A stretch of DNA of 63,073 bases, filler included, from Basidiobolus ranarum (Eukaryota): NCBI GenBank assembly GCA_040143965.1. It is 17 parts of 17 records of this genome, joined end to end, with 100 filler letters (N's around TTAATTAATTAA, not from the genome) between each part and the next. Parts side by side here need not be neighbours in the genome. Positions count along the whole stretch, not along the records: positions 7,452 to 11,075 come from JASJQH010009249.1; 16 more parts are not named here. The stretch is one strand, 5' to 3'. Of the stretch, positions 1 to 61,582 are shown in pieces. Both the position numbers and the translations under genes were made by a program. The notes below the pieces were generated by a model. The model had not been told where the DNA came from, did not search any database, and was given only the letters and a program-made list of their open reading frames with translations. The first letter of the stretch is position 1; each line of letters starts with the position of its first letter.

Positions 1-971
1 ATAGCATCCAATGGATTGTCATCTCCCATGAAAACCTTTCTAATTTGGATTTCTTCATATTCCACAAACCAATTTTTTTCATTTGTGAAACATTGGGGAA
101 GCTCCAGAATCAATGTACCATGACTGAGAATCCATGTTGGTAGTCATAGCTAGAGCCGATATGAACAAGTGATCTTTTGTTGTAACCACATTTCCAAATT
201 CAGTATGTTTTTCTTCTTTTGCAATTCCTTTATAGCAATCTTTGCTTAAATGGCCAGTTCTTTTGCAGAAATCCACAATGTGTTACTTTTCTACTTTAAT
301 TGCTTTAGGCCTTTATAGAAAGGCTTCCCATAGCCTGTTAAAGCATTTTCAACATTCTTTTGGTTGGATCCTGATTTGTGTAAATCTTCATCCAGAAGTC
401 TGCCAAATACATAATTTAAGGTCAAATTTTCAATTTTGGATACTAGAGCCATTACTAGGCTCTGCAACTCATGTGGCATGCTATTCAGGACTGTAACTAT
501 AAAATCTTGATCAGTAGTAGGTACTCGAATGCACTCCATTTCATCCACTAAAATAGTGACTCTTTTGATTAGTGATTTAATGTCTTCTGCTGGCTTCATC
601 TTCAAGTTAAAGAATTGTCTTCTTAGAAACATCTTGATGGTGGAAGAACTTGTTTGGTACATGGCTTCCTAGGTTCACCATACATTCTTGGCAGTTTTAG
701 CTCTTGAACATTGAATTAGCAATATGTCTTTAACATTAAGACAAGTTATGCTAAAGATACTTTGTTATTTTTTTACCTGGAGTAAAACTTGGGTTTCGGA
801 TAGTTTTGCATTGTTTTCTTCTCCTACAACAGTGTACCAAAGTTCTTTTTCTTGCAGCAGCATTTCATTTTAATTTTCCAAACTTGAAAATTGGCTCCAT
901 GCAATTTTTCAGAAGAGGGAAAAGTTTGAGAGATAGACTCTATAGAGAGTGTTGGCTCAGAGCTCATAACC
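1..971 (-). mobile_element. Ty1/copia family A internal region: decayed gag and protease
   Basis: Gag-like ORF 291-662, zinc knuckle C(D)FCKRTGHLSKDC, protease motif WYIDSGAS, PBS GGTTATGAGC at 962-971; stops and frameshifts. Confidence 0.9.
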
Positions 972-1319
972 TGTTAAAGTACTTAGGAGCCTGTTGGAAG
1001 TAGTTTGGAGAATTACAGGAAATGGTGGTTTTCACTTATTGATTTATTGAATAGAGAGTTGACATTTATAGTTTTGCCAAGATGTAAACAAGTCAACATA
1101 TAGAATGTGTTAAGGAAGGTCCGAGCAATATGAATGCAAAGTGTGGGACTTCTAGCTTAAGTTTGAAAAATCTATATATCTAAGATCTTCCAAGTTGGTA
1201 AAAATATTCAAAGTATATTCCAATTGAGAATAATGGATAATATCTTAGTGAATTATAAGATAACTAAGTACTAAGCTATATTTGACTATATAGGTGTTTA
1301 GGCAAAGCTAATTTCAACA
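972..1319 (-). repeat. Copia LTR family A (348 bp), 5' LTR
   Basis: TGTT...AACA termini, PBS directly adjacent, homologous copies at 22340, 36043, 37208, 37744 and about 38085. Confidence 0.9.
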
Positions 1320-3150
1320 GAAACATTGTAGACTCTTCTAAGCTGGCATTGTTTTTGATGTGTACTACTAGCTGATGAACCAACTTGTTGAGCACTTGCC
1401 CTTGTTGGAGATATTATCTCAATTCTAGTGATGAGTTGCTTAGCTTCTTCTCCTGAAATAGATACTTTGTCAGGAGTCTCTTAGATTTGGAGTGATCTAG
1501 TACATCTGTTCAACAGTCTAGACTGCTCTAATTTGCCCACAGTAATATCTTCTGATTCAAAAAATTGTCTTGCTTTTCTCTTTACACCTCTGATGATTAC
1601 TCTAGCCACAGTGTTTTGAAATGTTGTTTTGAAATCTGAAAACTCCATCAACAGTTGCTGCAAAGTCTTATTGAGTAGTGGTAGATATCCATTTAGAACA
1701 TCTTTTGTCTCTAGAGTTGAGAGTTATTAAATTTTGGAAGTGGTGGTTTTCTGTACCAAAGTAGGTTGTGAATCAGGAAGAATCTGTTTTGAGATGATCC
1801 ATAAATACTATATATATATATCTATGATGTTAGACTGTCTTGGTTACAATCAGAATCAGGTGTCTTTTAATATTGTTGGTTAAAATGTTGATGTTAATTT
1901 CCTTTAGTGTGATCAAGCATAAAGCATTCTGCTGTGAGCCATTTATAAATATAGCGATCCAAATCAAAGTATGATTAACTATGCTGATGCAGTTTATTTC
2001 ATAATTTCCATGCAATTACATATAATTGAAACATTTGGGGTAGTACTTGTAAACCAAAGTTTTATTATACAGAATGTGGGAAACTTACAATGATAATTGA
2101 AATTTGTAGCTAAGTAACTCACATATACCAGATCAAACAGTATCATGCTAGCTCAATACAAGATTAATATCATGCTCTCCATCTACTCTAAATGGTCATT
2201 CCTCATTAATCCAAAAGCAAATACTGGCTTTCCTATCACCATCCCAGAAGCAATATTAGTGAAATACTGTGGCTCATATATTTCAATACTTACCAGAAAG
2301 CAGCTAGTGATTTTATTTCATTACTACCAGAACTATTGTCCAATCAGATTTCAGTGCACTATCAATGGTAGTAAAAGTGTTAGAAGCTTCCATTCCAGGG
2401 TATGAGTAAGTAAGAATTAGGTCTGCACTGCTAATATATCCTGCTTAAACAGTTCTAAGATTCTCCACTAAACTCTTTCTTTGCCTCAGTATGGTTAATG
2501 ACTTTTTATCCACTTTTCTTGTGGACACAACACTGTATAGTTGGGTGATTATAATCCCTTCACTTGTTCTATTGCTGGAAAGAAAAGCATCTAGTCTATT
2601 CATTAATGATTCATTATTACTCAAGTTAGTTTCCAGCAGGTTACTGCCTTCCACGGTGATAGTGGATCACTAGACTGCTCATTAATCAAGTCCTCTGTTC
2701 TTGCTGGCTTTTTCCCTGTTGTGCCAGCAGGCTTTTGCATGGAAGCCTATTTTGATTTAGATTTTGAATGCTTTTTCTATGGCTTTCAAATTTTCAGATG
2801 GCAAGCTTGCTGTAATGATTTTGCTTAAAAGCAGTTTATATTAAACTGAAATTGCCATCCATTTCTGGAAGTATCTTCCAAATTTCCTGATAACTCATCT
2901 GTGACACCCCTTTGAGATTTGACAGATGATATTGATGGGATATAGCTAAAATACCACCCTAGCATAGGAGGTGTTTTTTTTCAAGAATATCCTTCTCATA
3001 TCCACCACACAAGCAATTAAAGAAGACCAGTTATCATTTCACAAAATCTTATGTATGAAAGCTGGAAGCTTCATAAAAAATGATCACAAGCATGGTAATT
3101 GTTCAAAGCCAGTAGCTGCATTCCCAGTCCTTGTCCAGTTCCATATTGTG
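1320..3150 (-). pseudogene. Decayed coding remnant of unknown family (probably repeat-derived)
   Basis: Protein-like minus-strand segments (ORFs 1481-1663, 2445-2654) broken by stops; CpG-poor like the TEs; no recognisable domain. Confidence 0.3.
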
Positions 3151-3626
3151 CATCTGGTCTGGAATCATTGCATATGCAGTACTTCAAAAAAACTCTGAGA
3201 TTAGCCACATCAGGTTTACTTCCAAACCAAGCTTGATAAGGTGTCATAGTCAATAGAGACCTACAAGGATATCTATTCCTAATATATACTGCAGTTGCAA
3301 CCAATTCAGCCCAGAACTGTTTTGGTAAATCTTGATCATGAAGCATTGATCTTGCCTTTTCCATTATTGATCTGTTTGCATGTTCTGCTACTCCATTCTG
3401 CTGTGGAGAATATGGCACTGTAGTCTGCTGTTTTATCCCATGTGTTGAGCAGAAGTTAGAGAAGAGTTTTGAGGTATATTCCCCTCCATTATCAGTACGG
3501 ATAATCTTAATCTTTAGACCTGTTTCAGTCTCCACCATTGCTTTGAACTTCTTGAAGGTATCAAAGGCTTCATCCTTACTGGCCAGAAAGTACACCCAAG
3601 TATACTTTGTCTTATCATCAATAAAG
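3150..3626 (-). mobile_element. Ty1/copia integrase (rve) fragment
   Basis: IRTDNGGEY, TVPYSPQQNGVAE(H)ANRSIMEKARSML, FWAE, LRVF motifs. Confidence 0.95.
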
Positions 3627-3726
3627 NNNNNNNNNNNNNNNNNNNNNNNNNNNNNNNNNNNNNNNNNNNNTTAATTAATTAANNNNNNNNNNNNNNNNNN
3701 NNNNNNNNNNNNNNNNNNNNNNNNNN

Positions 3727-3836
3727 CTTCCAGAAATTGTAATTTTCTCCATCAAGCTTTCCAACACTTGAGTTAATAAAAGTGGTAGTAGTGGTGTCTG
3801 TCATGCTGTAAAGGTTAGAACATGGGGCTCATAACC
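3727..3836 (-). mobile_element. Copia family C PBS and gag N-terminus
   Basis: PBS GGTTATGAGCCCC then MTDTTTTTFINSSVGKLDGENYNFWK, the typical copia gag start. Confidence 0.85.
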
Positions 3837-4214
3837 TATTAGGAAAATATGGGCTGTTTGGAGGAACTTTAGAAAAGTGGAGTTTTGAATAGCTTTGTGA
3901 GATAATTGTGTATTGTCCAGAAATAAAGCATTAATACTTTTTGATGGAAATACAGAAAACTAACACAGGGGTTGTGTCCAGAACATCTGTGGGAGTAAAA
4001 TGAGCTATCTTTGGGGCAATTTGGATGAGTTTGAAATTTACAATATGGAATTGCTAATTCTCATATTATTGACATATATATATAATATATGTTCCAATTT
4101 TCAGATAAGTGATATTTGAATAAGTAATGTTAACCAACTTATATCTGATATATGAAATAGCTAGGTGTATAAGCACAGAGATAACAAATATGATAAAGAC
4201 AATAAACTTCAACA
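3837..4214 (-). repeat. Copia LTR family C (378 bp)
   Basis: Adjacent to PBS; reverse-complement copies at 36672-37048 and 44634-44823. Confidence 0.88.
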
Positions 4215-6705
4215 ATAATTAGTTGGTGCATCAAATTCTTGAAGTCCGGCAATTTTTAATCTGTCCCAAAGGACTAAGTCTTCTTTTGTGACTCCTTGTT
4301 TATCCACAAGCTGATATGTCTGGAATGGGCATACTCTGATAACTTTGAAAAGTCATGTCTAAAAGGGTTCAAACTTCTTCTTTGTAGTTTTTCTCAAGAG
4401 CATAATGGTTTCTTCAGCAATTGATTGTTTATAATGTTGTTGCAACAAAGCTTCATTTTGGAGTCACTTGTTTCAACTCTGGCTTTTGCTGCATTTTTCT
4501 CCCCAGTAAGCTTGGCCTTTGCTATTGTTTGGCTATGTTCATCTTCCTTAAGGTTGTCAAGTTCAAGTGTGCAAGGTGTCTCCTAGGCTCTTTGGATGAA
4601 ATCCAATGACATAGTAGAAAGAGGACCTCTGAGTGATACTATATACTCGGATGTTGTTGGCAAATAAAGCTGGAGCAATGTGCTCATCCTACTTTTGTGT
4701 AGATCCATTGGCATACTTAGATAATGTCTTGCCAAAAAGTTTAATTAATCTCTTGGTGAATCCATTAGTTCTTGACTGATGGGCTTAGGTACTCAAATGC
4801 ATGATATTTTGAAGTTCCAAATAGGCTCTGAGGGTCTTTGCCATAAAGTTAGCTCATATGTCTGAAAGAATTTGAAGAAGGCATCCAAGCTTAATCAAAA
4901 TTTTGATGTTGTATAAAACTTACAACTTCTTCTTCACTGGTGACAGGCAACTTGCATTCACAAACAAGACTGGTTCTCCCCATGGTGGCTTACTTGGTCT
5001 TATATATCCTTGCTCTATGAGTTGGTGAATCTACTTCTTGTAACTCCAAGAGACTCATGGGACTGGGTGGTTTGCTCATAGGTTCACTGTCTCCTGTATC
5101 AATTGCATGGTCTACTTCTTTGGCAGGTGGAAGCTCTGTTAATTCCCATATAAATACATCTTGTTATTCCTGCAATACTTCTATCATTGCAGTTGGGATA
5201 TTAGTCAACTCCATGTCCTGCAATAGAGCAAATAGAAACATATCTTGAATCTTCCCGACAGCTTGGCTTGATTGACTTTTACTGGCCAACATATCACCCT
5301 TCTGGCTGTTCTCAATAAGGCTTTACTCCATTTTGGCAGGGGTAAGTTGAAAAGGCTTGCCTTCTGTTATCACAGTAATCTCATGGCTTCTCCAGTCTAT
5401 ATTTAGATATCTCTGAAATAGCCAAGTCTTTCCAAGCACTAAATAAAAATACAGCTTTCAAACAAGATAAATATTCATGTGATGCTCTTGAGTCAATCAT
5501 AAGTCTGGCAGTAGTTCTATTTATTACTTGATTGCAATATAGTACTCTCCTGAGTTCCCATTCACATTGCAAAGATACTCAGCAGCTTGTTGTAAAGTGG
5601 CCTCACCTTCTTCTTCCTGATTGTAGTCTGCCTCTTCCATAGTCTCAACAATTTCAAAGCTCTTGTTACTTTTATTTGGCTTTCTGTATGGAAAAAGTCT
5701 GGCATTGTGTTCCTTCATATGGCATGTGAAGTGCAATTGTCTTTGCTTAAATTCTTGAGTAGTGAGTGCTCTGTTGATGAAATAAATCTCTATGGGAGTT
5801 CCTTCCATTGGCCTCCTGCAGTAACTTCAGTGTTGTCTGTTCTTCATATCATGTGGTCTTCTTTCATCATGCATGGCTGTGTAATAGGTGATTGCAATCT
5901 TAATTGCCTGTTGTAAGGTGTGTGAGGCCTGGTGGTTTACTTCTATTTTGGTCCTTCCTTTCAGTTCTTTGACACAGTGTTGTCTGTCCTCCATATCATA
6001 TGGTCTTCCTTCATCAAACATCGCTATGTAATAGGTGATTGCCATCTTAATTGCCTGTTCAAAGGTGTCTGGGGCTTGGTTGTTTACTTCTAACTTGGTT
6101 TTTCCTTTCAATCCATTGAAAAAGTTTTCCACCTGGTCATACTAAAGCATATTGTTGATCTGGTCCAGTAGGCTTTTGAACCGGTACATATACTCCACCT
6201 GCACAGTTTCTAGTTGATTCAACTATGTTAGTTTACTCCTAAGTAGTTGTGGCTGATATGGTGGCTCAAAGGCATCCTGATTCTCTTGGATAAACTGTTC
6301 CCAAGTAGTGATTGGTGGTAGTTCTACTGTGGCTTCTGCCATATATCTTTTATGATACCACTGAAGTGCTGTACTGGTCAGATATGTAGCTGCATAGTAT
6401 AGCTTGCAGACATCTTGTACTTCTCTGGATTTGAAGGCTTCTTCTAGCTGTAACATCCAAGTTGCAAGATTTTCATTTACTTCACCAGGGTACAGGTCAA
6501 CTTTGATTCTCATTGCACTTCTTGACATGGTTGGTCCAGATTGGTTCTGGTTAGAATTAGCAATTCCTTGCTGTTACTGGCTCAAAAGCTGCAGATGTTG
6601 GGACTGCTGGGTAATGATCAGTTCTATGTAAGATTTCAATTTGTATCTTTCTGAGATAATAAAGGCTGTTCTTCAGGGTGAAAAATATATTGTCACTGCT
6701 ACCAA
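4215..6705 (-). mobile_element. Decayed Ty3/gypsy internal region: gag, protease, largely deleted RT, integrase remnant
   Basis: Retrotrans_gag-like ORFs 6223-6528 and 5827-6132, protease LMIDSRASHEY, integrase-like remnant near 4600-4950, PBS TGGTAGCAG at 6696-6704. Confidence 0.8.
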
Positions 6706-7159
6706 TGTTATATCTCTTTATTAGCCAAGAGTTATTGGGGGTTAAGTAGACTAGTATTATATTTCCTAGACCTGGACTGAGGTTTATTGAAGGAGATACT
6801 CCAGTATTTATACTTAAACTGATAGATCTGACAAGTAATGACTCATCCACTGATTACTAATCTAATTACTTTATAAGGATCTAGCTACATCATACTGCAG
6901 TGGCTCAATTCTTGCACAAGACATCCTAGGGTTGCATAGAAATTGGCTGGTACATGTTGGGGTGGCACAGTCAAGATGATTTTGTGACCATTCATGGATC
7001 ATTGTCAAAAGAATATCCTAAGACCTATTAGAACTAGGTACAGGAAGATCATATGACTGCTACTAATATAGACTGATAACTAGATAATAGAAAGCTGATA
7101 ACTGATGGTACTGATAGAAATATATTGGAGACAATACTGTTTTACTGATAGTATGAATA
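6706..7159 (-). repeat. Probable 5' LTR of the gypsy element, interrupted by LTR-D
   Basis: Minus-strand ...TAACA end 1 nt before the TGGTAGCAG PBS; far boundary not resolved. Confidence 0.55.
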
Positions 7160-7351
7160 TGTCATGATTCTGATCTCGGCATACTGATCCACTGCATATG
7201 GAACTCTTCTATTATTAGATTATGACATCATATCTACTGAGCCATCCCTTCTCGGCAATCTGGTGTCAGTTCATCCAGATTACCTTATATGGAAGTCATG
7301 TTCTTTGGAACATTCCATGAAACCTAACCAATCATGTCATCCCACACATAG
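7160..7351 (+). repeat. LTR family D, truncated by contig end
   Basis: Starts TGTCATGATTCTGATC; near-identical to 21318 onward. Confidence 0.85.
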
Positions 7352-7451: not shown

Positions 7452-7789
7452 ACTCGTGGTTGACTAGAGACAACCCATCCATTGACATTTCGGGCACTGT
7501 TGGGCCAGGTGCGAGCATCACCCCACCACTCCGTATGCTGGCAGGTGAGCTCATAGAAGCGTGCATCAGCCCAGTCTGTACATTGGCCATTGTTGAAGCG
7601 GAAACTGCGAGAGCAAGATGCCAGCATGCTGATATTAGCGAGTTTACTAGATGTACCAGCTACCTCAGTTTGGTTTGAGGAACTAGGAGCCGCGACTGCA
7701 TTGTGAGTTGGTAAGGCCTCAACGGAAGAGGCTATGAAAGTGGCGGCTGCGAGGAACACACAAGATAAAGCGGATGTAAGATTGACCAT
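7452..7789 (-). CDS. Secreted CHAP-domain (cysteine/histidine-dependent amidohydrolase/peptidase) protein, 3'-truncated
   Basis: Signal peptide MVNLTSALSCVFLAAATFIASSVEA, then GQCTDWADAR...WWGDARTWPNSARNVNGWVVSSQPR, matching the CHAP pattern GQCTxYA..R...WGNA..W...A...G..V...P. Confidence 0.8.
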
Positions 7790-9887
7790 GATGATGTCTA
7801 ATAGTATGTTTCTAGTAGTAATCCAGTACTATTTTATAATTGAACATCCACTGTCATTTTATACAATTTTCGTGCCAACTCTCTCCACGATTGATAACAT
7901 TCGCTCGAAGTGACTCCCAGATCCCAGTCCACTCTTTTCCAATCTAGAAGAAGTACCGACTACTAATACCATAAGAGGAGTTTTTATCGTAAATTTCAAT
8001 GTATGGTTACCATTACTTCAAGTTTCATTTATTGACAAAATTCTCTAACGAATGAAGATTTAATCTGATGGGGAATTAGATGATCATTCGTGGGACTCGT
8101 GGTTGTGATTATAAGTAATCCAATTGAGATGTTGGCAAGCCAATTATTCCAAAAAGATACGTTTTAATACCACTTTAGAGTATTGCTTGTGTGATGGAGT
8201 TTAGAAATTGTTAGCCTTGCCATAAGACCAATAGGTTAGTACTATAATAATATAGCGTATTCCGATTTTACCGCAATTCCAATGGATTTTCCATGTTAGG
8301 CTAAATTTTGGTGATATGAATGTTAACTTTGGTTGAACACCGAGTCTAAGAGTAGCTTTCCTTTGTTTTTAATTAAAACAGTCGACGCACTTGTTTGCAT
8401 GGCCTTACTACCCCGATTATTATACTATGAGCAATGTTCCATTGGGCTATCTGGCTGAGAACATTTAAGCAAGATGCATCTAGTTTCTGATGCTCTAGCA
8501 ATATCTAAAAGGAGTTTAAGAAAAATCGCAACACTATTAATTATTCATCGATAACCAAAGAAGTTATTTTGCAAATCCAACTCCCTTGGGGTTAATCAGC
8601 TTAAGCTACAAGAATCACACAGGCTCTCATCTGAAAATGAGTGTTTATTTTTCAGCCACGCAGTTCATTATACATGGAAGTGGTGATTATTTGCTTGTCG
8701 CAAGTAGACATTCGTTTCTGTTATCTTGAAGTAAAGGGAATATAATTTACTCCAAGTCCTTAATGGTAAGTGCAATGTACGACACTATCAAACCGGATTA
8801 TCAGACTTAGATGGCCCTGTTACGGGATTCTCTTGACAACGGGAACGCGGAACTAGAAATGACAATAGTCTGGTTCCGAACTTAATGTTGGCTTGGATTT
8901 TAGTTCACAAAATTCTCGGAAAAAATCGGTGTTTCTTTTATAGGGAATAAGTATTTAATGGGATCCAATAGAGTTATATCAATATCTGAACATAAGATAG
9001 AATAAGTTGGCTTATTTGATCTCAATAACAACATAGTCGTTTGATCTCTAAGATCTCTATTGATCAATGGAAATTCAATGTAGTAGTCAACTTTTTATCA
9101 TTTCAACTCATACTCACTAGACTTATGTATTATGCACGGGAATCTCAAGAACTAAGCCAAAGGTAAGGAAGATTAACAGGAGGTTGGTAGTATTCATAAG
9201 AGAATGATAAATCTCCCATTTGGAGTCACTGGTTATCGAAGATCTAGTTAATATTAGCAAGTCTATCCCTGATTTTGACAGACAGGTGGCTAGTAATGAA
9301 GAGGAGTGAAGATCAACCCTTTTCTCTACTGCGTGTTTATGTGCTATTTGCTAAAATACCTGTAAGCTTAGAGCAAGACTAAGAAGGTAGATAATAGTCT
9401 TCGAGTCTAATACTTTAATGCACTCTCGACTTTCTTCATCGTACTAATCGTCTGATCAAAAAGCGCATTTTCAACTTTGCTTAAATTCCCATATATATAT
9501 TATGATTTATTACTATTGATATTTGTGGCATGAAGTAAATATAAAAAATATTCTTGACATACACATAAAATGTCTCTAACATCCATTGATTTTCACTAGG
9601 TTGATCACCCGGATCAATATTGTTAAATAAATACTCTGTATATTACATATATAAACATAAACATTCATCTTGCGCAATACCTGATACTTAACATAACTAT
9701 ATGAAAAGGTTTAGTTAAAGTGGAAATCTGTAGCGCTCTAGAGAGATAGGATGTGTGGATAAGTGTCACGGTGGCTAGCAGAGATGTGAATTTATTTTGA
9801 TATCAAGTACATATAACCAGTATATGCAACCAGTAGTTACTGTAAAGTCGATTCTTTCAATCTCATAAAGTGCATTCGGCACTCCAT

Positions 9888-9963
9888 CTTAAATCCTCTT
9901 GTTGTAGTTATCTGCCTATTAAATCTCCTTTTTGTAGTTATCTACCTATTAAATCCTCTTTTG
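9888..9963. repeat. 30-bp tandem repeat, about 2.5 copies
   Basis: TTAAATCCTCTT(G/T)TTGTAGTTATCT(G/A)CCTA unit repeated. Confidence 0.7.
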
Positions 9964-10211
9964 ATATCCCGTTCATCAATATATCTTCCCCACCATCTGT
10001 ACATTTAAGGAGTGTTACTATGGAAGTTACATTGACTGCAGCCACAGCCATTCAACTTGGTACAATAAAGAAGTCGAATCACCAGTTAAAACATGGACGA
10101 AAGGTATAGGATCAGCTTTATGTTCCGGCCTATACTTGAGTTCAATAACTTGTCCATCCTCTAGAGATTCCATTAATATACTGATGCCATATTTCCCTAA
10201 CTTAGCGGGTA

Positions 10212-11075
10212 ATAAAATTGCTGGTGTTAATAGTTATTCTATTGATATGTATCTATACAGCAATGGCAACTCCAATCACTAGCCATTCACTTCTTGACAG
10301 TCAAGAGTTAGATAACCTCAAAGTTCATGCGAAGTACGCCTCTGGTGCGTACTGCCCACAGCCCTAACTGACAGATTTGTCATGTGGGGCAAGTTGTGTG
10401 GGCCGACTGAACGTAACTTCTTAGGTTAATTACTAGTTGGACCAACTGGGCAAAGAATATGGAATTCTTTCCCTGAATATTTGTCTATCCCATGGCCAAC
10501 AAAGATGTACAGGTTCGCAGTGGGTTCTATGCAACGTATGCTAGTGTCGAGAATACTGTTTACGTAGAGCTTAAGCGGGTCTTGGCATTGTTACAAGAGC
10601 ATACCAATATCTACAAGTTAATCATCACTGGTCATTCTGTGGTGAGTTGAATACATATCTTACTTTCGCAACTATCATTTTCTAGTGGGTGGAATGAATA
10701 TTCGTATTAATGCTATTAAAACGAACATTTTTTATAGCTATTGCTAACATTACTGAAATAAGGTGACGCAGTTGCAACCATTTGTGCGATGAATATCCAA
10801 CGGAGTTACTTCACTCCCAAAAGACAAGATCATTCGAATTAGAGTTACGAATCATCAATAGTTCGCAAATACTCTTGCATTCATATAACCAACCAAAGAG
10901 CTAGAAATTTGTACTTCTCTCAACTAGTACGTAATACCATTGCCTTGAATCGCTCGAGTACAACTTTGGCAAGAATCACTGATAAAGGCGACCCAGCTAC
11001 TAAACTGCCACCACGAAGGATGGGGTATCTTTACCATCCAGATGAGATATACATTGGATATGACAATACCACAGT
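10212..11075 (+). pseudogene. Secreted class 3 lipase pseudogene
   Basis: Signal peptide starting at ATA (lost ATG); KYASGAYC, VRSGFY, LIITGHSV|GDAVA across an intron near 10642-10761, DPATKLPP..GYLYHPDEIYI; in-frame stops and frameshifts. Confidence 0.8.
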
Positions 11076-11175: not shown

Positions 11176-11575
11176 AATACTTCGATTTAGCCAAGGTAAG
11201 ACCAGAGAGGTACTACAGAAGAGCCATGAGTTTTTTACTCATCAGTATTCTCCATAACAGAATTGGCCGGTCATCAGAATTATGTAATATCCAAATATTC
11301 GAGCACTTGCAACACAAATCGAATGTCACTGGAGGTACGCCGAGCCAGAACTATGATCCAGTTGTCCCGTTACAAGTAACAGGATCAGGCGTGCCTATAT
11401 TCTTTGTCCATCCTGGTGTAGGTGAAGTCCTTATCTTGACCAACTTGGCCAAGCATTTTGTGAATGAACGTTCATTCTACGCATTGAGAGCTCGAGGATA
11501 TGATGAAATCAATGGAATAAAACTCAACCGGAAGGTCCCTACGCTGTAGCTGGATATTCTTACGGTGGTGTGGTA
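11176..11575 (+). pseudogene. NRPS-like (A-T-TE type) thioesterase-domain remnant, copy 1
   Basis: NYDPVVPLQVTGSGVPIFFVHPGVGEVLILTNLAKHFVNERSFYALRARG, then frameshifted QPEGPYAVAGYSYGGV (GxSxG); intron near 11196-11260. Confidence 0.85.
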
Positions 11576-18619: not shown

Positions 18620-19517
18620 AAGGTAAAGGCAAGCAAGAAGCCACACAAACACTGCAAAGCACCCTCAGTAGTGTCACACTACAGAATGTACAAAAATAGT
18701 CAAAGTGCTTGAGGAGTATTTTCAAAAGTATGAAGGGAAAAACTCAGTGCAAGTATGCAGAAAGTGGCTTCTGAAGAAGAACATTCAACTTGATGTTCAG
18801 ACTGGTGTTGATGATGCAGATATCTGGGAAGAACTTAATACAGAGTGGCACAATATTGCAGGGTATCAACCAGATAGCTGGAAGAATGTTGATTCTGCAA
18901 CATTGATACAATGGTTGGCTTTGATGGAGATATTGACACAAACTCATGTTGGGTATGAGCTAAAACTTGGGTATGAAGAACTCTATAAAGATATTCAGGA
19001 GAATATATCAAACAGACTGGGGATTTCAAAGGTGACAAATTAGTATTCAAGTGGTAAATGTGTAAAATTTTAGTTATGTTTTTTGCACATGTGCTGATCC
19101 ATAGTTCTCCAAGATCTTAGCCAATCATGTGCAACTATTTTGCGAGATCTTAAAATTTCACTCCTGAAACTGAAAACAGTGATTAAAATCAAATCTAACT
19201 TGACAATTTTATGATGGTAAGTAAACAGTCAATCCCAAATGGATTAAAATTGTGACAGTGTACCTACAATAACAATCCTCAAATTTCTCTTAGGGTATTG
19301 ATGGATTGCATTCTGCCAGGGATGTTGATGATGAGATGGTAGATGCTTAATGGTAGTCATACATGGTAAGATTTTGATCCTCATATTTGGCATGTTATTT
19401 AATTTCCATCAGTTTTTGTAAAAAATAATTTTCAAAGGACAAATTATTATGTTTACTGCTACAGAATTTGAATTAATATGAATGCCTTTATTTAGATATT
19501 TTAGACTTTGTATACCA
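18620..19517. repeat. Unidentified coding repeat family R: 18620-19290 on +, about 19295-19517 on -
   Basis: Homologous to 19966-20940, 58635-58965 and 61583-63073; includes ORF 18705-19043. Confidence 0.8.
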
Positions 19518-19965
19518 GTCAAGACAAGACTGGTCAGGGAAGATACTTTGGCAAGAATCTTCATTGATAACTGGCATTGATTAGACCTAAATCTGATCAA
19601 ATAAAACATGGAGTTTATATTGATGTTACAGAGTAAAACATGTTATACCAAAAAGGAAATAGGCAGTGTCAAGTTTAAGTGAAGGGGTGTTGGGGAACAC
19701 AAGGACCAATACAAGAAGCAATGATGTAAGGATGATCAGGTGACTTTTCAAAGAATATCTTGGAGGATGTACACTATGTGTGGGATGACATGTTTGGTTA
19801 GATTTCATGGAATGTTCCAAAGAACATGACTTCCATATAAGGTGACTTAGATGCACTAACACAAGATTATCAAGAAAGGATGGCACAGCAGGTATGATGT
19901 CATAATATAGTAACAGAAGAGTTTGTTTTGCTGTGAATGAGTATGCTGAGATCAGAATCATGACA
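19518..19965 (-). repeat. LTR family D, inverted and truncated
   Basis: Reverse complement of about 21318-21765; ends ...GAATCATGACA. Confidence 0.85.
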
Positions 19966-20940
19966 GAATAGATTATGGCCTGCCTAAAACAATTATACCA
20001 TGAATCTCATTCAATCTCACCAAGAAGTCTGTCTTGAAGCTTTCCTAAAAATACCATTAGATTTTCACACAAACAAACTAGTCCAAATTATAGAAGTACT
20101 TACTCTCAGTCCATGGATTGGGTTTTGTTGCTGTTATTGTGCTCAAACAATGTGAAAAACTCATGAGCATATTGAAAAGAGCCCTTTGTTGGAAGGTTAA
20201 GAGCTCTGGAGTCTGCTTAACCCATTGCATTACATCCATCACTGATTTTCCTGATATATTCCATCACAAAAATTGGAGTATGGTTATTGTAGGAAAAGTC
20301 TCACAATTTTAATCAATTTAGGATTAACCACTTACTTACCATCATAAAATTGTCAAGTTAGATTTGATTTTAATCAATTTTTTCAGTTTCAAGATTGAAA
20401 TTTCAAGATCTTGCAAAATTGTTGCACATGATTGGCTACAAGCGCAGAAAACTATGGTGCACACATGGGCAGAAAACATAACTCAAATTTTACATATTCA
20501 TTACTTCAATGCAAATTGGTCACCTGTGAAATCCTGAGTTTTGTGGATGTATTCTCCATAATATTTTTATAGAGTTCTCAATGCCCCAGGTTTAACCAAT
20601 ATCCAACACAAGTTCAGATCAATATCTTCATCAAAGCCCACTATTGTATCAACATTACAAAATCAATATCCTTTCAGCTGTCTGGTCAATACACTGCAAT
20701 ATTGTGCCACTCTGTATAAAGTTTTTCCCAGATATCTGCATGATCAACACCAGACTGAGTGTCAAGTTGAATATTCTTCTTCTGAAGCCACTTTCTGCAT
20801 ACTTGCACTATATTCTTCCATTCATAATTTTGAAAATACTTCTCAAGCACTTTTAATATTTTTTACATCTCTGTAGTGTGACAATACTGAGAGTGCTTTG
20901 CAGTGTTTGTGCAGCTTTTTGCTTGCCTTTAAATTTGGGG
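19966..20940 (-). repeat. Family R fragment, inverted relative to the 18620 copy
   Basis: Reverse-complement match to 18620-19290, continuing into WNISGKSVMDVMQWVKQTPELLTFQQRALF and, after a putative intron, KLQDRLLGEI. Confidence 0.8.
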
Positions 20941-21317
20941 CTAATTCCAACACTTTGAAAGATACCAGCTCAGGTTAGAGAGCAGTGTAGTGGGGCAGCA
21001 TTGCTACCCATTGGCAGGTTGACTTATTTCCACTCCAAGCTCATATCAGTACTATTGCACAGCTTCTATTTTATTATCTGTTTTTGACGTACCCATATTT
21101 TCTAGACAATCATATCACACCATTTATAATATCCCCTATTATTTCAGATTTATCAATATTAACCTACATTAGCCCTGTTATTTTCTGGAAAATTATACAA
21201 TCTTCTGGAACATTCCATAAGATTCCTGGAATATTTCATGATTGATTGAGTTTTGACCAATCAAACCTGATTTTGCTGGAACATTCCATAACTTTCTGGA
21301 TTACTCTACAATCTTCC

Positions 21318-21842
21318 TGTCATGATTCTGATCTTGGCACACTGATTCACTACAAATAGAACTCCTCTATTATTAGATTATGACATCATATCTGCTGTGC
21401 CATCCCTTCTTGGCAATCTGGTGTCAGTTCATCCAGATTACCTTATATGGAAATCATGTTCTTTGGAACATTCCATGAAATCTAACCAAACATGTCATCC
21501 CACACATAGTGTATTTCTGCCAAGACCTTCCATGGAAGGTCACCTGATCATCCTTACATCATCCCTCTTTGTATTGGTTCTTGTAGTCCCCAACACCCTA
21601 ACTCTCGAACTTGCCACAGCATATTTCCTATTCAGTATATTATGTTCCATCTTGCAATATCTATATAAGCCCTATGTATTCCTTGATCAGATCTCAGTCT
21701 GATCAATGGCAGTTATCAATAAAGATTCTTGCCAAAGTATCTTCCTTGTCCAGTCTTGTCTTGTGGTCTACACCCAAGTACTCTCCTACCTTCTAGCCTC
21801 TTGTCATTGTTTCCAGTCCTTGTCCAGGTCCTTATTGTGACA
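21318..21842 (+). repeat. Full LTR family D (525 bp)
   Basis: TGTCA...TGACA inverted termini; three copies in the window; no TSD seen. Confidence 0.85.
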
Positions 21843-22239
21843 TTATCAGCAAACTAATGGTGGAAAAATTGCAAAACATCTGAAATTTTGAATAGCACTG
21901 ACACTTGGCAAATAGTTGACTGTTGTTATTGTTAACAATGAGAATAAGCTCTTGGATTTTGCCAAAAATTTCCTTAAAGAATTCAGCCAATGTATCCCCA
22001 ACTTGCCATCAACAAATGTCCTGCCACAAGTAGGTGTGTCATTGCTTGAATAGAATACCCTATGGCTAAAACAATAATCCTGCATATCTCAATCTATATC
22101 ACCAATAAGTCTGTGTTGCAGCTTTCCAACTGACACCATCAAATAATCAAACAAACAAGTTAGTCTGAATTATGGATGTACTTACTCTGTGTCCAAGGAT
22201 TGGGCTTTGTTGCTGTTATTGTGCTCAAAGAATGCACAA
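21843..22239 (-). repeat. Family R fragment
   Basis: Homologous to about 62535-62930; ORF 21846-22085 aligns with ORF 62580-62843. Confidence 0.8.
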
Positions 22240-26059: not shown

Positions 26060-27545
26060 GCCCTGTATGGATCGTAACTAACTGTGAAGTATCTCAGGAT
26101 CTTTGGGTGTTCAGCATATTGCAAAATTCCAGCTCAAAAGTGCTCTTAATTGGAACCCAAAAGCAGATAATGCATATGCAATGGTTATTGTGATGGACCT
26201 AAGGCCTCCAAATTGTTTGATATCAGAAATCAGAAGTTGCTCAAGTGCAGATATGTGATCTTGGGTGAAAATGCCAGTATTTCACCTCAAATCACAGTTC
26301 TTGATCCTGAAAACACATTAAGCACTATTGAGGAAGTGTCGGACAAAATTCCAGCTGTATCTTAGCCCTGTTTAACAGAAATTCCAGTCCCAAATATATC
26401 AGAGAATGATTCAGGACCCAGATGATCATCCAGAAGGAGAAATAAGCTGGGAAACTGGTGGAACACCTCTAATGTTGATATATATGCTTATGCAGCATTT
26501 TGTGACAAGCCATAGACTCTAGATCAAGCTCTGGAGTGTACAGAAACAAAATTATGGGAAAAAGCAGTATCAGATGAGCTTTCTTTGCTCAGGACAATAA
26601 AACATCAATTTTAAGTCCTCTTCCATCCGGGAGAAAGTCAATAGGCTGCAAGTGGGTCTACAAAGTCAAAAACCAAGCTGATGGAACCATAGAAAGGTAC
26701 AAAGCAAGATTAGTTGCAAAAGGCTATTCCCCAACACCAGGAGCTGAACTTAATGAAACTTTTACTCCAGTAGCTAAGCTTAGCTCCAATAGATCAATCC
26801 TGGCACTCTCAGTCATCCATAACCTGATCTACATCAAATGGATGTAAAAACAGCCATTCTGTGTGGAAATTAAGAAGAAGAGATCTATATGGCACAACCA
26901 GATGCATTTGTTGACCCAAGACATCCTGACATGGTCTTTGAACTGCAAAAACCACTATATGAACTCAAGCAAGCACCCAGGGCATGGCACAACAAGATAG
27001 ATACCTATTAGGAATCACTGTAATACTAATAATGTACAGCAGATCACAGTATTTACATAAAAACAACTGAAATAGGATTCTTATCTTGGCACTATATGCT
27101 GATGACTTGATTAGAGCTACAAATGTTCTAGAATCTCTTAATCAGATATAAAGCAGCTTGTTAAACCAATTTCAGATGACTGATATGGGTTCAGTTATTT
27201 CTTGGAATCCATATCAATAGAGATAAACCCAATCAGAAAAGCATGCTGAATCAGTCTAGATACATCTTTGACTTCCTAGAATGCCTCAACAGGGAGAATA
27301 GCAAGCCTTTATTAACACAAATGGATCCCAATGTAAAATTAAGCAAAATTTCACTTGATTTGGCCCAAAATGACTGAAATCAAAGCCAAGAGTTTCCTTA
27401 TCAATGCAAGGTGGATATTTTACTGTATACAATGGTTGGAATACATCCAGAGTTCCCTTATCAATCCATGGTGGATAGTTTAATGTATACAATGGCTGGA
27501 ACTCATCCAGACATTGCTGTGGCAGTGGGAACAGTCAGCTTATCT
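26060..27545 (+). mobile_element. Copia family B pol remnant: integrase C-terminus and RT
   Basis: [56 protein letters not shown], duplicated PYQS..HPDIA segment; many stops. Confidence 0.92.
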
Positions 27546-27775
27546 CTCAAAAATCCATGATCTGTGCACAAACCTGTGGTAAACCAATTATTTGTTGAAA
27601 GTCTGGTGACTTGTGGTACAAATGGAAATTCCCAAAGAGGAAAATATGGAGTATGGTGACTGCATCTGAACACAAAGTCTAAGGCCATTCAGTTGCTTGT
27701 ACAGCTGCAATGCCAAAGTATCATACATTGACAGACTAGGTTAAGATTCCCAAGCAATATAGGCATAGCATACAA

Positions 27776-27848
27776 GGACTGGTAGCTCAGTAGTTAGATC
27801 ACCTTGCTAGAGTGAATGTGGTCCCAGGTTGAAATCCTGGCCGGTCAA
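27776..27848 (+). tRNA. Degenerate tRNA gene or tRNA-derived SINE head; isotype not assignable
   Basis: A-box TAGCTCAGTAG, T-arm CCAGG-TTGAAAT-CCTGG, acceptor stem GACTGG/CCGGTC; anticodon arm mispaired; T10 run at 27872-27881. Confidence 0.7.
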
Positions 27849-27894
27849 TATTTCTCCCTAACTAATTTCAATTTTTTTTTTCGGGCTCATAACC

Positions 27895-28245
27895 TGATCA
27901 AAGCGTTGAGGGGATTTGGAAGTATTTTGGACAAGATTGGATTTGCAAATTAGACAATTAAGTTTTATTGAATTGAATATGTCCTATTTATAGTTTACTA
28001 TGAAATAGGACTATTGGATGTGCTTAGGTCTTAACAAACATGCCTGTTGAACATGGGTGAAAGTTTGAGGTGATTTGGAGAAGTTACAAGAAAATAGTGA
28101 AAATCGGTAAAAGTGATCTAATTGATATTTCTATCAATTAGAGCAATAAACACACATTTTTGAATGACAGAATTGAGTGCTAAATCATCAAAATATGAAC
28201 AGACTAACTACTAAATAATGAGTTGCTATTTACCTAATTTTGACA
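27895..28245 (-). repeat. Copia LTR family B (351 bp), with PPT on one side and PBS on the other
   Basis: TG...CA termini; homologous to 58284-58634; PPT TTGAGTGGGAA at 28246-28256 and PBS GGTTATGAGCCC at 27883-27894 (both minus strand). Confidence 0.9.
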
Positions 28246-28256
28246 TTCCCACTCAA

Positions 28257-28687
28257 CTAATTATTTTGTATTTCTCTTAAACCTAGCTTATGTCTGAGTA
28301 GATTGAATTGTGCTTTAGCTAAATGTTTGCTTGAGATACAGCTATCATTTCTTTCAGTAAGGCAATAGACAAGTTCAATTATATTATTCTCTATTGCTTC
28401 TCTGGCAAAATGATGCCCAATATCTATATGTTTTGTTCTAGCATGAAATGTTAGGTTTTTAGCTAATGAAATACAAGTTTGATTGTCTTCAAGTATAGTA
28501 TTAGCACATTTTTGCATGTATCCTAAGTCTGTAAATAACTTCCTTAAGCACATAGCTTAGTTGTAGATCTTCTAACATCAAGATTTCTTCCCCAGTCTGC
28601 ATCTGGGTAGCCTTCAAAATATTGTGCCTCATGAGTGGTGCAGTATTCCAGAACTAGATCTGCAGTTCTTCTCAAATACCTGAATAT
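28257..28687 (-). mobile_element. Copia RNase H remnant
   Basis: GYPDADWG, EDNQTCISLAKN..FHARTKHIDIGHHFARE. Confidence 0.93.
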
Positions 28688-29676
28688 TGATAAAAGTGTT
28701 TAGGGGATTTGGAAGTGTTTTGGACAAGATTTGGATTTGTGAATTAGACACTTTCAAATCCCCTAAACACCTTTATCAGGTCATGAGCCCCTAGCTATAT
28801 ATAGAGCCAAAGGGACCATTAGAAGCTATCCTTGCCTTTTACATGAAGCAGAGCAAAGCACTATCTACAATTTTTCTACACCTCAGAGATTCTCAATTGA
28901 GGCACATTTAACCAGCCAAAAATGTCCAAAATGCTTGGGAAACACTTGCAGGACTATATGAGACTAAAAGTCTGGCTAATAAGCTATACCTTAGGTGAAG
29001 ATTATTCTCAATTTGGATGAATCCTGATGATTTTATGCTTAATCATATAAATTGGATAAAAACTATGGCAGATCAGCTCTCATCCATTGGAGCACCTCTA
29101 AACAAATATAACTTAGTCATGACACTAATTGGGAGCCTGCCAGATAAGTTTGGGAACCTCATAATGGCCCTAGAATAAAGATCAGATCCATTAACAATGG
29201 AATATATTGGTGGTAGGCTTTTGAATGATGAATTAAGGAAATCTACTTCTCAGCAAAATAATACAGAATGGGCATTTTTTAGAGCTGTAAAATGTCCAAC
29301 AGGCTTCAATAATGGTGCCCCTATTAGGAAATTAATCATCTGCAAGTATTGCAAGAAACCAGGCCATTTAATCAAAGATTGCAGAAAAAAGATTTTTGCC
29401 AAAAAGCCAAAAAAGGAACAAGCAAATCAAGTAAGTGCTGATAGAGATCATCTATTTGTGTCTGCCCAATCAGTAACCACTAAAGAAGACTCAGAAACTT
29501 GGTACACTGATTCAGGAGCTTCCCAGCTTATGTCAAACGGGAAAGATTGGTTTTCCGGCTTAAAACTAATCCAAACAAGGAAAGTGTACTTAGGTGATGA
29601 CTTTGCACTAGATGCAGTTGGTAAGGGCACAGTTGTACTTAAGACCAAAATTCAGCTACACTATCTGCAAAATTGG
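28688..29676 (+). mobile_element. Copia family B fold-back LTR end, PBS, and decayed gag-protease
   Basis: Inverted LTR-B ends at 28688-28778, PBS GGTCATGAGCCC at 28779-28790, CKYCKKPGHLIKDC, WYTDSGAS; homologous to 57240-58280. Confidence 0.9.
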
Positions 29677-29776
29677 NNNNNNNNNNNNNNNNNNNNNNNN
29701 NNNNNNNNNNNNNNNNNNNNTTAATTAATTAANNNNNNNNNNNNNNNNNNNNNNNNNNNNNNNNNNNNNNNNNNNN

Positions 29777-32700: not shown

Positions 32701-33392
32701 ATCCAGGATTCTTTTTTGGACAGGTTCTTGCTGCATGTCCAGGAGCTCCACAATAGAGGCATAGATTCTGTTGTTGGTGTCAATGTTTCTCCTCAGGGCT
32801 AAGCTTTCTGAAGCAAGCACCATCAATTTGCATTGGGTCATCAGCTTGAGCTGTATTTTGTGTTTGATGGAAGAGAGGTCTGAGAGTAGATGATGAAGGG
32901 CAGAAGAAAGGAGCCATATTTCTTTGTTGTTGTTTTTCAAAAAACCAGTTGTCACATTTAACTGCCTGGTCGAAAGCATCAGTCAAGGTCACTGGGTCAG
33001 CCATAGTGAGTAAAGATCCTTAACATTTTCTTGGAGTTGGTATTGGAATTGGTTGATCAGGGTGGATTCTCCCCAATTGAGATCACAGGCAAGGAGGCAG
33101 AATTCTGCAGCATAAGTTGACGCAGGCTTTGACCCTTGTTTAAGTATACAGATCTTGGTGGCTGAAGTTCTTTCCTTATCTGCATTTCTGAATGTGGCTT
33201 CCAGTTCAGCAAGAAAGGCAAGGAAGTTTGAAAGAAGTGGAGATTGACTTTCCAGCAAACAGGCAAACCAAGATAGAGCTGTTCCTGATAATAGTGTTCC
33301 CACTAAGCCTACTTTTGTTTGGTCAGAGGGGTAGCAATGGGGATGAAACTGGATGATGAGCTTTAGTTGGTTAAAAAAACCACAATAGTTTT
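29777..33392 (-). mobile_element. Ty3/gypsy (Tf2-like) gag-PR-RT-RNaseH-integrase, decayed
   Basis: Gag zinc knuckle CLYCGAPGH, LLDSGASSCF, VMPFGLTNAPAVFQ, YLDN (for YLDD), VETDVCDFALGAVL, ISDQGPQF, HPQSNGQTERVNQ in gypsy domain order. Confidence 0.96.
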
Positions 33393-58283: not shown

Positions 58284-58634
58284 TTATAAAAGTGTTTAGG
58301 GGATTTGGAAGTGTTTTGGACAAGATTTGGATTAGTGAATTAAAGACTTAAGTTTTATTGAATTAAATATGTCCTATTTATAGTTTACTATGAAATAGGA
58401 CTATTGGATGTGCTTAGATCATTGCAAACATGCCTGTGAAGCTAGAGTGAAATTTGAGGTGATTTGGAGAAGTTTTGAGAAAATAGTGAAAATTAGAAAA
58501 AGTGAACTATTTGATAGAAATATCAATTAGAGCAATAAACACTCGTTTTTGAATGACCAAATTGGGTGCTAAATAATCAGAATATGAATAAACTAACTAC
58601 TAGATAATGAGTTGCTATTTATCTAATTTCAACA
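58284..58634 (-). repeat. LTR-B, 5' LTR
   Basis: Aligns with 27895-28245; ends TTTCAACA on +. Confidence 0.9.
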
Positions 58635-58965
58635 GACTCTTGTATTTTTTGATTCTCATTATAGCTGGAATACAAAGCCTAAAATATCTATATAAGGGCA
58701 TCCATATTAATTCAAATTCCTACAGCAGTAAACCCAGTAATTTGCCATTCAAAATTTGCAAAAGTTGTGGGAAATTAAATAATGCATGCCAAATATGTGG
58801 ATCAATATTTTAACATGTATGTATATCATTATAATACTGTCAAGAAACTGCCATCACACCATCAAAATCCCTGGCAGAATGCAAGCCACCAATATTTTAA
58901 TAGTTCTCTGATGGTTTTGCGATTTTGCAGGGTGGATCCAATATGGATCATATTGATTTTATTTT
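58635..58965 (+). repeat. Family R fragment
   Basis: ORF 58782-58976 aligns with ORF 62079-62309 (KKLP....NPWQNASHQY..VDPIWI). Confidence 0.8.
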
Positions 58966-61580: not shown

Positions 61581-61582
61581 AT

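What the first reader, a model, noticed from the sequence alone, without database searches (positions are those of the whole stretch)
7452..7789. Bacterial-type CHAP peptidoglycan hydrolase with a signal peptide on a fungal contig
Seen: signal peptide, Ser/Ala linker, then GQCTDWADARF...WWGDARTW...ARNVNGWVVSSQPR with the catalytic Cys intact and no intron in the visible part. The same contig carries an intron-containing fungal lipase relic, which argues against bacterial contamination. Known: CHAP domains of this type are cell-wall amidases/endopeptidases of bacteria and phages. Inference: a horizontally acquired secreted antibacterial effector. The catalytic His would lie beyond the contig end and is not visible.
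Basis: partly seen in the sequence, partly recalled or inferred. Interest (0 to 1): 0.7.

Follow-up and report, generated by a model that had tools for sequence, protein, structure and literature searches.

The report
Amplified bacterial wall-cutting enzyme in fungi
A gut- and soil-dwelling fungus carries dozens of copies of a secreted enzyme of the kind bacteria use to cut their own cell walls; it is shared with insect-killing relatives, seems to have come long ago from soil bacteria, and may be how these fungi attack or digest bacteria.

Summary
The ORF is real (window 7789-7454, minus strand, 112 codons, cut by the contig end): hydrophobic N-terminus, Ser/Ala linker, half a CHAP domain with the catalytic Cys. 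Alone it scores below the Pfam cut-off, but 95%-identical complete paralogues score 58.5 bits and carry the His (GHVAVVE) and SNWN motifs; the predicted fold matches SsaA/PcsB-type CHAP peptidases. It is not a lone gene: the genome (a Basidiobolus, by its nearest named proteins) has 50 CHAP matches, 32 complete and stop-free, many in tandem, among eukaryotic genes; one has a spliceosomal intron; the domain is under strong purifying selection. The family also occurs in Entomophthora, Massospora, Conidiobolus and Neoconidiobolus, and in no other named fungus found. Nearest bacterial relatives are membrane-anchored CHAP proteins of Ktedonobacteria (57-60% identity). The fungal sequences form one clade (95/93) with two shared residue changes, but AU tests reject neither two transfers nor a sister rather than nested position. 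Best reading: an old bacterium-to-fungus transfer, refitted for secretion and amplified, working as a peptidoglycan peptidase against bacteria. Activity and expression are untested. Not found in the literature searched; analogues exist in Trichomonas and Saprolegnia.

The parts
7454..7789 (-). Visible part (112 codons) of a secreted CHAP peptidase gene; complete paralogues are 179 aa; the rest lies beyond the contig end
7715..7789 (-). Probable signal peptide, residues 1-25, ending VEA|LP
   Evidence: hydropathy peak 2.46; ALP conserved in paralogues; helix 6-19 in the model of the paralogue; cleavage site inferred
7616..7714 (-). Ser/Ala-rich disordered linker, residues 26-58, with two N-glycosylation sequons (N39-Q-T, N52-I-S)
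   Evidence: sequence; pLDDT under 50 for residues 22-52 in the paralogue model
7454..7615 (-). N-terminal half of the CHAP domain, residues 59-112, including extra Cys59 and Cys83 of this subfamily
   Evidence: dN/dS 0.02-0.13 against the four closest paralogues
7580..7582 (-). Codon of the catalytic Cys70 (G-Q-C-T-D-W-A-D-A-R)
   Evidence: aligned to the Cys of 5t1q and 2k3a; Cys in 49 of 54 Basidiobolus, 23 of 23 Entomophthorales-clade and 100 of 100 Ktedonobacteria domains
7790..8073 (-). Upstream block copied along with the gene in several paralogues; holds a TATAAAA at 7857-7863 (candidate promoter, untested)
   Evidence: blastn matches of 79-90% identity starting here in C928, C3386, C13112, C4635; sequence
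10209..11075 (+). Broken class-3 lipase gene with an intron donor shared with an intact paralogue; evidence that the contig is fungal

Best explanation
A secreted, papain-fold CHAP cysteine peptidase that cuts the peptide part of bacterial peptidoglycan. Shown: CHAP sequence and fold, conserved Cys and His in complete paralogues, strong purifying selection, a large fungal gene family, closest relatives in Ktedonobacteria. Inferred: an ancestor of Basidiobolus and the Entomophthorales took the domain from a Ktedonobacteria-like soil bacterium, where it sits on a membrane anchor; the fungus replaced the anchor with an ER signal peptide, a glycosylated low-complexity linker and extra cysteines, and amplified it in tandem. 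Cys70 attacks an amide or peptide bond, activated by His131 and oriented by Asn148 (Glu in staphylococcal CHAPs), with Asn150 helping the oxyanion hole. The many near-identical copies suggest high dose. The likely job is to lyse competing, mainly Gram-positive, bacteria or to harvest their walls in litter, dung, dead insects and the herptile gut.
For: Pfam 56-61 bits for 5 of 5 complete paralogues; model pLDDT over 90 for 104 of 179 residues, best structural matches 5t1q Z 15.8, 2k3a Z 12.7, PcsB Z 12.5, above Gsp amidase Z 9.7 and Tae1 Z 8.3; His in 53 of 54, 23 of 23 and 100 of 100 domains; dN/dS 0.00-0.13 in the domain where dS is not saturated; 50 CHAP matches in G000, 32 spanning the profile without a stop; GT-AG intron in the C753 paralogue; Myb, PEMT, ANKRD13 and C2 genes beside paralogues; 65 of 65 kept bacterial loci are Ktedonobacteria or unclassified Chloroflexota; fungal clade 95/93, fungi plus Ktedonobacteria-type against six other bacterial CHAPs 100/99; related Ktedonobacteria-type domain fused to a lysozyme-like domain beside an Amidase_2 gene; tested precedent in Trichomonas (PMC6299479, passages).
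Against: No enzyme assay or expression data. The third catalytic position is Asn, Asp or His rather than Glu. The CHAP fold also serves non-wall substrates (Gsp and trypanothione amidases). This copy has no wall-binding domain and its own His is not visible. AU tests on 117 columns reject neither two separate transfers (p 0.48 and 0.40) nor fungi as sister to all Ktedonobacteria-type domains (p 0.54, that tree 1.9 log units better). Only the best 150 of 962 representative hits were listed, so distant fungal homologues could be missed. Retention in obligate insect parasites may point to a different job there.
Confidence: 0.65

Rival explanations
1. Same origin and catalytic chemistry, but the enzymes have moved to a non-bacterial substrate: a secreted protease or amidase acting on insect or host proteins, or on the fungus's own wall proteins.
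For: Fungal sequences share changes next to the catalytic Cys (acidic residue at +2, small residue at +6) that could alter the groove; Entomophthorales branches are long; 14 clusters in the obligate parasite E. muscae; CHAP folds with other substrates exist.
Against: Basidiobolus domains stay 57-60% identical to bacterial ones under strong purifying selection; closest structures are all wall hydrolases; one paralogue class carries an N-terminal module whose closest predicted structures are attached to M23 peptidases and Amidase_2 in Myxococcota (a lead only).
Confidence: 0.15
2. It cuts peptidoglycan but mainly to dampen animal immunity or to scavenge nutrients from dead walls, not to kill live bacteria.
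For: No wall-binding domain in this subfamily; hosts are insects, amphibians and reptiles whose immune systems sense peptidoglycan (general knowledge).
Against: High copy number of near-identical enzymes fits either use; nothing here separates them.
Confidence: 0.12
3. Two independent transfers from Ktedonobacteria-type donors, one into Basidiobolus and one into the Entomophthorales (a rival for the history, not for the function).
For: Not rejected by AU tests (p 0.48; p 0.40); the placement of Basidiobolus is itself contested (PMC12592215, passages).
Against: Fungal clade 97 SH-aLRT in 160 rows and 95/93 in 70 rows; D or E two residues after the Cys in 51 of 54 and 23 of 23 fungal domains against 2 of 100 Ktedonobacteria; A or G at +6 in 52 of 54 and 23 of 23 against mostly M, Y, L.
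Confidence: 0.2
4. Bacterial contamination or a chimeric contig.
For: No intron in this copy; short contig; the gene sits at a contig end.
Against: 73 merged places on 56 contigs; 19 clusters in a second Basidiobolus species on contigs up to 204 kb; an intron in a paralogue; eukaryotic neighbours; 1.6 kb of flank 90% identical to another CHAP contig; coding GC 0.51 in a 0.38 contig.
Confidence: 0.01
5. This particular copy is a truncated or dead duplicate in a living family.
For: 3' half not assembled; some paralogues contain stops; its neighbour is a broken lipase.
Against: Only 1 non-synonymous against 2-11 synonymous differences in the visible domain versus the four closest paralogues; upstream block intact; many paralogues likewise end at contig ends, as expected where near-identical repeats break an assembly.
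Confidence: 0.1

Closest known systems
CHAP domain PF05257 / peptidase C51, SsaA- and PcsB-type (S. aureus 5t1q, S. saprophyticus 2k3a, S. pneumoniae PcsB 4cgk)
   Same: Fold (Z 12.5-15.8), catalytic Cys and His, Asn two residues after the third catalytic position.
   Different: About 28% identity; Asn instead of Glu at the third position; no coiled coil, glucosaminidase, LysM or SH3b module; far below the whole-protein cut-offs of the NCBIfam equivalogs (35-48 bits against 450-839); extra cysteines.
Membrane-anchored CHAP proteins of Ktedonobacteria (Thermogemmatispora, Dictyobacter, Tengunoibacter, Ktedonospora; uncharacterised)
   Same: 57-60% identity over the domain, same SN(W/Y)N strand and C-terminal GxGVSF(I/V)WH, also in tandem arrays.
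   Different: Long N-terminal region plus one internal hydrophobic segment and a QQATATAVTQDGYD stalk instead of a signal peptide; aromatic residue two after the Cys.
Trichomonas vaginalis NlpC/P60 peptidoglycan hydrolases (PMC6299479, passages read)
   Same: Papain-like wall peptidases taken from bacteria by a microbe of animal mucosa, duplicated, shown to cut peptidoglycan and to help outcompete bacteria.
   Different: NlpC/P60 family, not CHAP; protist; activity shown there, untested here.
Saprolegnia parasitica secreted CHAP family (PMC3681718, passages read)
   Same: Secreted CHAP proteins in a filamentous eukaryote, proposed bacterial origin, duplicated (7 genes).
   Different: Oomycete; no donor named; none appeared among the named hits here, so probably a separate acquisition (no direct comparison made).
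Horizontally acquired antibacterial enzymes of eukaryotes: GH25 muramidases (PMC4241558, search listing only) and Dae amidases (recalled, no call)
   Same: Bacterial wall-degrading gene domesticated by a eukaryote.
   Different: Other enzyme families and donors; Tae1-type folds match only at Z about 8.

Membership tests
CHAP (PF05257, peptidase C51) | Profile match over the gathering threshold | tested here: met
   5 of 5 complete paralogues 56-61 bits against 26; the truncated window ORF alone 21.4 bits
CHAP (PF05257, peptidase C51) | Catalytic Cys at the start of helix 1 | tested here: met
   Cys70 in the window ORF
CHAP (PF05257, peptidase C51) | Catalytic His in the GHV strand | tested here: inconclusive
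   Beyond the contig end for this copy; present in paralogues 95-96% identical and in 53 of 54 Basidiobolus domains
CHAP (PF05257, peptidase C51) | Polar third residue (Glu in LysK and 2k3a) and oxyanion Asn | tested here: inconclusive
   Asn or Asp in 54 of 54 Basidiobolus domains, Glu in 6 of 8 outgroup rows; Asn150 in 52 of 54. PMC4126393 passages say the Glu is less conserved than Cys and His
CHAP (PF05257, peptidase C51) | Papain-like alpha/beta fold | tested here: met
   Model of paralogue P0002: Z 15.8, rmsd 3.0 over 119 residues to 5t1q
CHAP peptidoglycan hydrolase | Cleaves peptidoglycan in a Cys-dependent way | not testable with these tools
   Needs an enzyme assay
PcsB / staphylococcal amidase equivalogs (NF046104, NF006359-62) | Whole-protein score over the curated cut-off | tested here: not met
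   21-48 bits against 450-839 for P0002; only the domain is shared
Domesticated bacterial gene (HGT) | Integrated in the eukaryotic genome, not contamination | tested here: met
   Intron in a paralogue, eukaryotic neighbours, tandem arrays, second species
Domesticated bacterial gene (HGT) | Eukaryotic sequences group with one bacterial lineage inside bacterial diversity | tested here: met
   Fungi plus Ktedonobacteria-type 100/99 against six Bacillota, Actinomycetota and Cyanobacteriota rows; the outgroup is small
Domesticated bacterial gene (HGT) | Nested within the donor clade, which fixes direction | tested here: inconclusive
   Nested at 92/88 and 90/88, not; sister position not rejected, p 0.54
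Domesticated bacterial gene (HGT) | Absent from other fungi | tested here: inconclusive
   Named fungal hits only from Basidiobolus and Entomophthorales; word-based searches and a 150-row list limit sensitivity
Secreted protein | Cleavable signal peptide and secretion | tested here: inconclusive
   Hydrophobic N-terminus and conserved ALP; no predictor or proteomics
Domesticated bacterial gene (HGT) | Expressed | not testable with these tools
   No read data available for this window; purifying selection is indirect support

The most novel reading that the evidence does not exclude
One ancient transfer from filamentous soil Ktedonobacteria gave the common ancestor of Basidiobolus and the Entomophthorales a secreted wall-cutting enzyme family, now amplified to dozens of genes, that serves as an enzymatic antibacterial arsenal with subfamilies tuned to different peptide bridges. 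It would explain part of how Basidiobolus shapes herptile gut bacteria, act as a rare genomic marker joining Basidiobolus to the Entomophthorales, and show that its bacterial borrowing began in soil before gut life. The short subfamily's three co-occurring extra cysteines (59, 83, 126) may add a disulfide and a redox switch on the catalytic Cys.
Probability: 0.4. Interest if true: 0.78.

Novelty: new variant of a known kind. Interest (0 to 1): 0.62.

Why it matters
Basidiobolus is thought to structure the gut bacteria of amphibians and reptiles, so far through small molecules (PMC10964425 and PMC7466969, passages); a large family of secreted wall peptidases gives a direct, easily tested enzymatic mechanism. 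If the transfer is single, it is a shared marker for the contested placement of Basidiobolus (PMC12592215, passages) and a relative time link between early terrestrial fungi and Ktedonobacteria. A soil donor shared with non-gut relatives does not fit the view that Basidiobolus took its bacterial genes in the gut. The proteins are also compact, eukaryote-secreted candidates for antibacterial enzymes. Databases already label them 'Peptidase C51 domain-containing', but the searches made here found no paper on them.

Tried and rejected
Extending the contig: C4635 begins with the matching stretch but differs at 3 of 84 bases, and C3386 shares a 105-base exact suffix but diverges upstream, so no continuation can be assigned; complete paralogues were used as stand-ins. 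Phage origin: IMG/VR best E 3e-9, at most 44% identity in 80 kept loci of 133; 2 phage and 25 plasmid records at 34-43%; rejected for catalogued viruses, though small virus-like contigs carry Ktedonobacteria-type CHAPs. Three AU tests could not separate the histories. A LysK-type calcium site: Asp72 matches LysK Asp56 by spacing, but the upstream Asp pair is absent. The ESM Atlas feature search only confirmed CHAP. Distance from Cys126 to Cys70 could not be measured because model coordinates are not given. Expression and read coverage could not be examined. Literature: 'Basidiobolus'+'CHAP' 0 papers; among 30 listed of 113 papers with Entomophthora or Conidiobolus only one holds the word CHAP, a blow-fly lipid paper; no CHAP or PF05257 in the held supplements of PMC11291939, which include B. 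meristosporus and C. coronatus rows, PMC11105155 or PMC8778642. The supplements of PMC7466969, whose HGT tables may list these genes, could not be read; bioRxiv supplements are closed. Earlier scan notes held nothing.

Full report
Observation. The window is a concatenation of contigs of about 3.6 kb separated by N spacers. The finding sits at the left end of the contig at 7452-11075 (G000:C9249). The minus-strand frame from 7789 gives 112 residues and runs off the contig: a hydrophobic stretch (hydropathy 2.46 at residues 10-20) ending in VEA|LP, a Ser/Ala linker with two N-glycosylation sequons, then GQCTDWADAR and WWGDARTW. Pfam CHAP hits this half domain at E 3.6e-4, 21.4 bits, under the cut-off of 26. 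The class-3 lipase relic on the same contig is real: one of four pieces tested passes the Lipase_3 cut-off, and it is 50-57% identical to an intact, intron-containing lipase on C88 with the same intron donor.

A family, not a single gene. The fragment finds 68 matches in its own genome; the Pfam model finds 50, all over cut-off, of which 32 span the profile with no stop (counted). Merged, these are 73 places on 56 contigs, 16 contigs with two or three. That is an upper bound on genes, since it includes halves split by contig ends, broken copies and possible alleles. Complete paralogues 95% identical to the fragment are 179 aa and carry GHVAVVE and TSNWN; all five complete copies tested score 56-61 bits. 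An AlphaFold model of one (30-row alignment) has pLDDT over 90 for 104 residues and a disordered linker, and matches S. aureus 5t1q (Z 15.8, rmsd 3.0, 119 residues), S. saprophyticus 2k3a (12.7) and PcsB (12.5) ahead of Gsp amidase (9.7) and Tae1 (8.3). Cys70 and His131 align with the catalytic pair; the position of the third residue (Glu in LysK and 2k3a, PMC4126393 passages) is Asn or Asp in all 54 distinct Basidiobolus domains, as it mostly is in the nearest bacteria, and the oxyanion Asn is kept. In the visible domain the window copy differs from its four closest paralogues by 1 non-synonymous and 2-11 synonymous changes; dN/dS in the domain is 0.00-0.13 wherever dS is not saturated, and 0.19-0.82 in the N-terminal part, where the more distant pairs were compared without gaps. 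In the short subfamily three extra cysteines occur together: 22 of 50 scored sequences have Cys59, Cys83 and Cys126, 27 have none, one has only Cys126; these are related sequences, so this is one event, not 22.

It is fungal. Of 50 hits to a complete paralogue, 37 are Basidiobolus proteins (19 B. meristosporus, 18 B. ranarum), which places G000 in that genus. Paralogues lie beside Myb, PEMT, ANKRD13 and C2-domain genes, and the paralogue on C753 has a GT-AG intron inside an added cysteine-rich N-terminal module. Contamination is excluded for the family.

Range and origin. The other 13 hits are bacterial-type, two named as Ktedonobacteria. A scan of GTDB genomes confirmed 336 relatives and kept 65 loci, all titled as Ktedonobacteria or unclassified Chloroflexota, best identity 57-60% (its patterns came from an alignment that included such sequences, so it is biased to them). 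The word-free search of 1.84 billion representatives gave 962 hits, 150 listed; I looked up 30 selected proteins by name, not all. This and two profile searches revealed 14 clusters from Entomophthora muscae, 3 from Massospora cicadina, 2 from Conidiobolus coronatus and 1 from Neoconidiobolus thromboides, several with hydrophobic N-termini and low-complexity linkers. No other named fungus appeared. Viral and plasmid CHAPs are distant. The Ktedonobacteria proteins have a long N-terminal region, one hydrophobic segment and a conserved stalk before the domain, and are themselves arrayed, five in 8 kb in L037; K. racemifer has Orn-type peptidoglycan with a Ser/Gly-containing bridge (PMC3236041 passages).

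Trees. Domains shorter than 85 residues and identical ones were dropped and the rest thinned by identity to 160 rows; 70 hand-picked rows went into the careful tree. Fungi form one clade (97 SH-aLRT; 95/93) split into Basidiobolus (99/92) and Entomophthorales (100/98); fungi plus Ktedonobacteria-type domains stand apart from six Bacillota, Actinomycetota and Cyanobacteriota rows at 100/99. All fungal groups share an acidic residue two after the Cys (51 of 54, 23 of 23, against 2 of 100) and a small residue six after it. Against this: with 117 columns the AU test does not reject fungi as sister to all Ktedonobacteria-type domains (p 0.54; that tree is 1.9 log units better than the free one), nor two separate transfers (p 0.48; p 0.40). 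So a Ktedonobacteria-like source is well supported, one transfer is favoured, and nesting inside the donor clade is not shown; direction rests on the domain being widespread in bacteria and narrow in fungi.

Mechanism. Shown: fold, catalytic pair in paralogues, selection, amplification, bacterial affinity. Inferred: secretion through the ER, Cys/His/Asn hydrolysis of an amide or peptide bond in peptidoglycan, and use against or upon bacteria in litter, dung, insect cadavers and the herptile gut. Near-identical copies under purifying selection suggest dosage more than an arms race, while the deeper subfamilies could differ in target. Rivals are a shift to non-bacterial substrates, immune dampening or scavenging, and two transfers; contamination is rejected.

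Comparison and novelty. It works like the laterally acquired NlpC/P60 hydrolases of Trichomonas (PMC6299479 passages) but belongs to CHAP; a secreted, duplicated CHAP family of proposed bacterial origin is on record for the oomycete Saprolegnia (PMC3681718 passages). Extensive bacterial HGT into Basidiobolus is known, with Proteobacteria, Firmicutes and Actinobacteria as main sources (PMC7466969, abstract and section 17; CHAP and Ktedonobacter not in its main text; its supplements unreadable). No paper in the library holds both Basidiobolus and CHAP, and the held supplements of three comparative papers lack the family. Most subscription journals are not searched. UniRef already labels the proteins 'Peptidase C51 domain-containing'.

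Verdict. Real, fungal, probably functional, and more interesting as a family than as the single truncated gene flagged: a new variant of the known theme of domesticated wall hydrolases, with an unusual donor, a subphylum-wide range and a very large expansion. Interest 0.62; activity and expression remain to be shown.

Noticed in passing
L037:384-8309; also L035, L036, L059, L070, L078: Ktedonobacteria carry tandem arrays of membrane-anchored CHAP genes (five in 8 kb in L037) with a conserved QATATAVTQDGYD stalk; one relative is fused to a protein kinase-like N-terminus (P0073). Possibly wall remodelling for branching or spore formation; apparently uncharacterised.
   Followed up: partly
L084:18-9289 (Ktedonobacterales contig of 13.7 kb): A compact virus-like gene set: possible packaging ATPase end, a 432-aa protein with no Pfam hit (capsid-like by position, untested), an SLT_3+CHAP protein with C-terminal hydrophobic tail, small membrane proteins and an Amidase_2. 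Many unnamed representatives (P0061, P0064, P0088, P0105, P0130) have the same CHAP-plus-tail build on 5-20 kb contigs; none was found in IMG/VR.
   Followed up: partly
L209:5115-5924 (G000:C753), P0016, P0023, P0024, P0026: Some paralogues carry a 60-residue cysteine-rich module (CPxGNGLYCG...) with an intron in it; no Pfam hit; its closest predicted structures are on Myxococcota M23 peptidases and amidases and small ascomycete proteins (TM 0.67-0.72). Candidate cell-wall-binding module.
   Followed up: partly
window 7452-11075; L210 (C88); L209 (C753): A class-3 lipase gene or relic lies within about 4 kb of a CHAP gene on three contigs; may reflect clustering of secreted-enzyme families.
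   Followed up: partly
window 1-7351, 18620-22239, 26060-33392, 55764-63073: Seven of the 17 contigs have CpG observed/expected of 0.03-0.11 against 0.42-0.84 in the others, with broken gag-like frames at 5827-6528: repeats depleted of CpG, as from methylation and deamination.
   Followed up: no
window 11226-11549 (+): Short frame resembling the thioesterase end of a non-ribosomal peptide synthetase (PIFFVHPGVGE...), at a contig start; label from recall, not tested.
   Followed up: no
L208:4139-4921 and 5591-6679; L203:5991-7359 and 8429-9999: Long intron-poor frames near CHAP copies that look bacterial in type (methyltransferase-like, catalase-like, and others); possible further transferred genes; labels from recall.
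   Followed up: no
PMC11291939 supplementary file 2, Cluster_37: A cluster of 41 secreted proteins of early-diverging fungi has Ktedonobacter racemifer as approximate donor: another possible Ktedonobacteria-fungus exchange.
   Followed up: no
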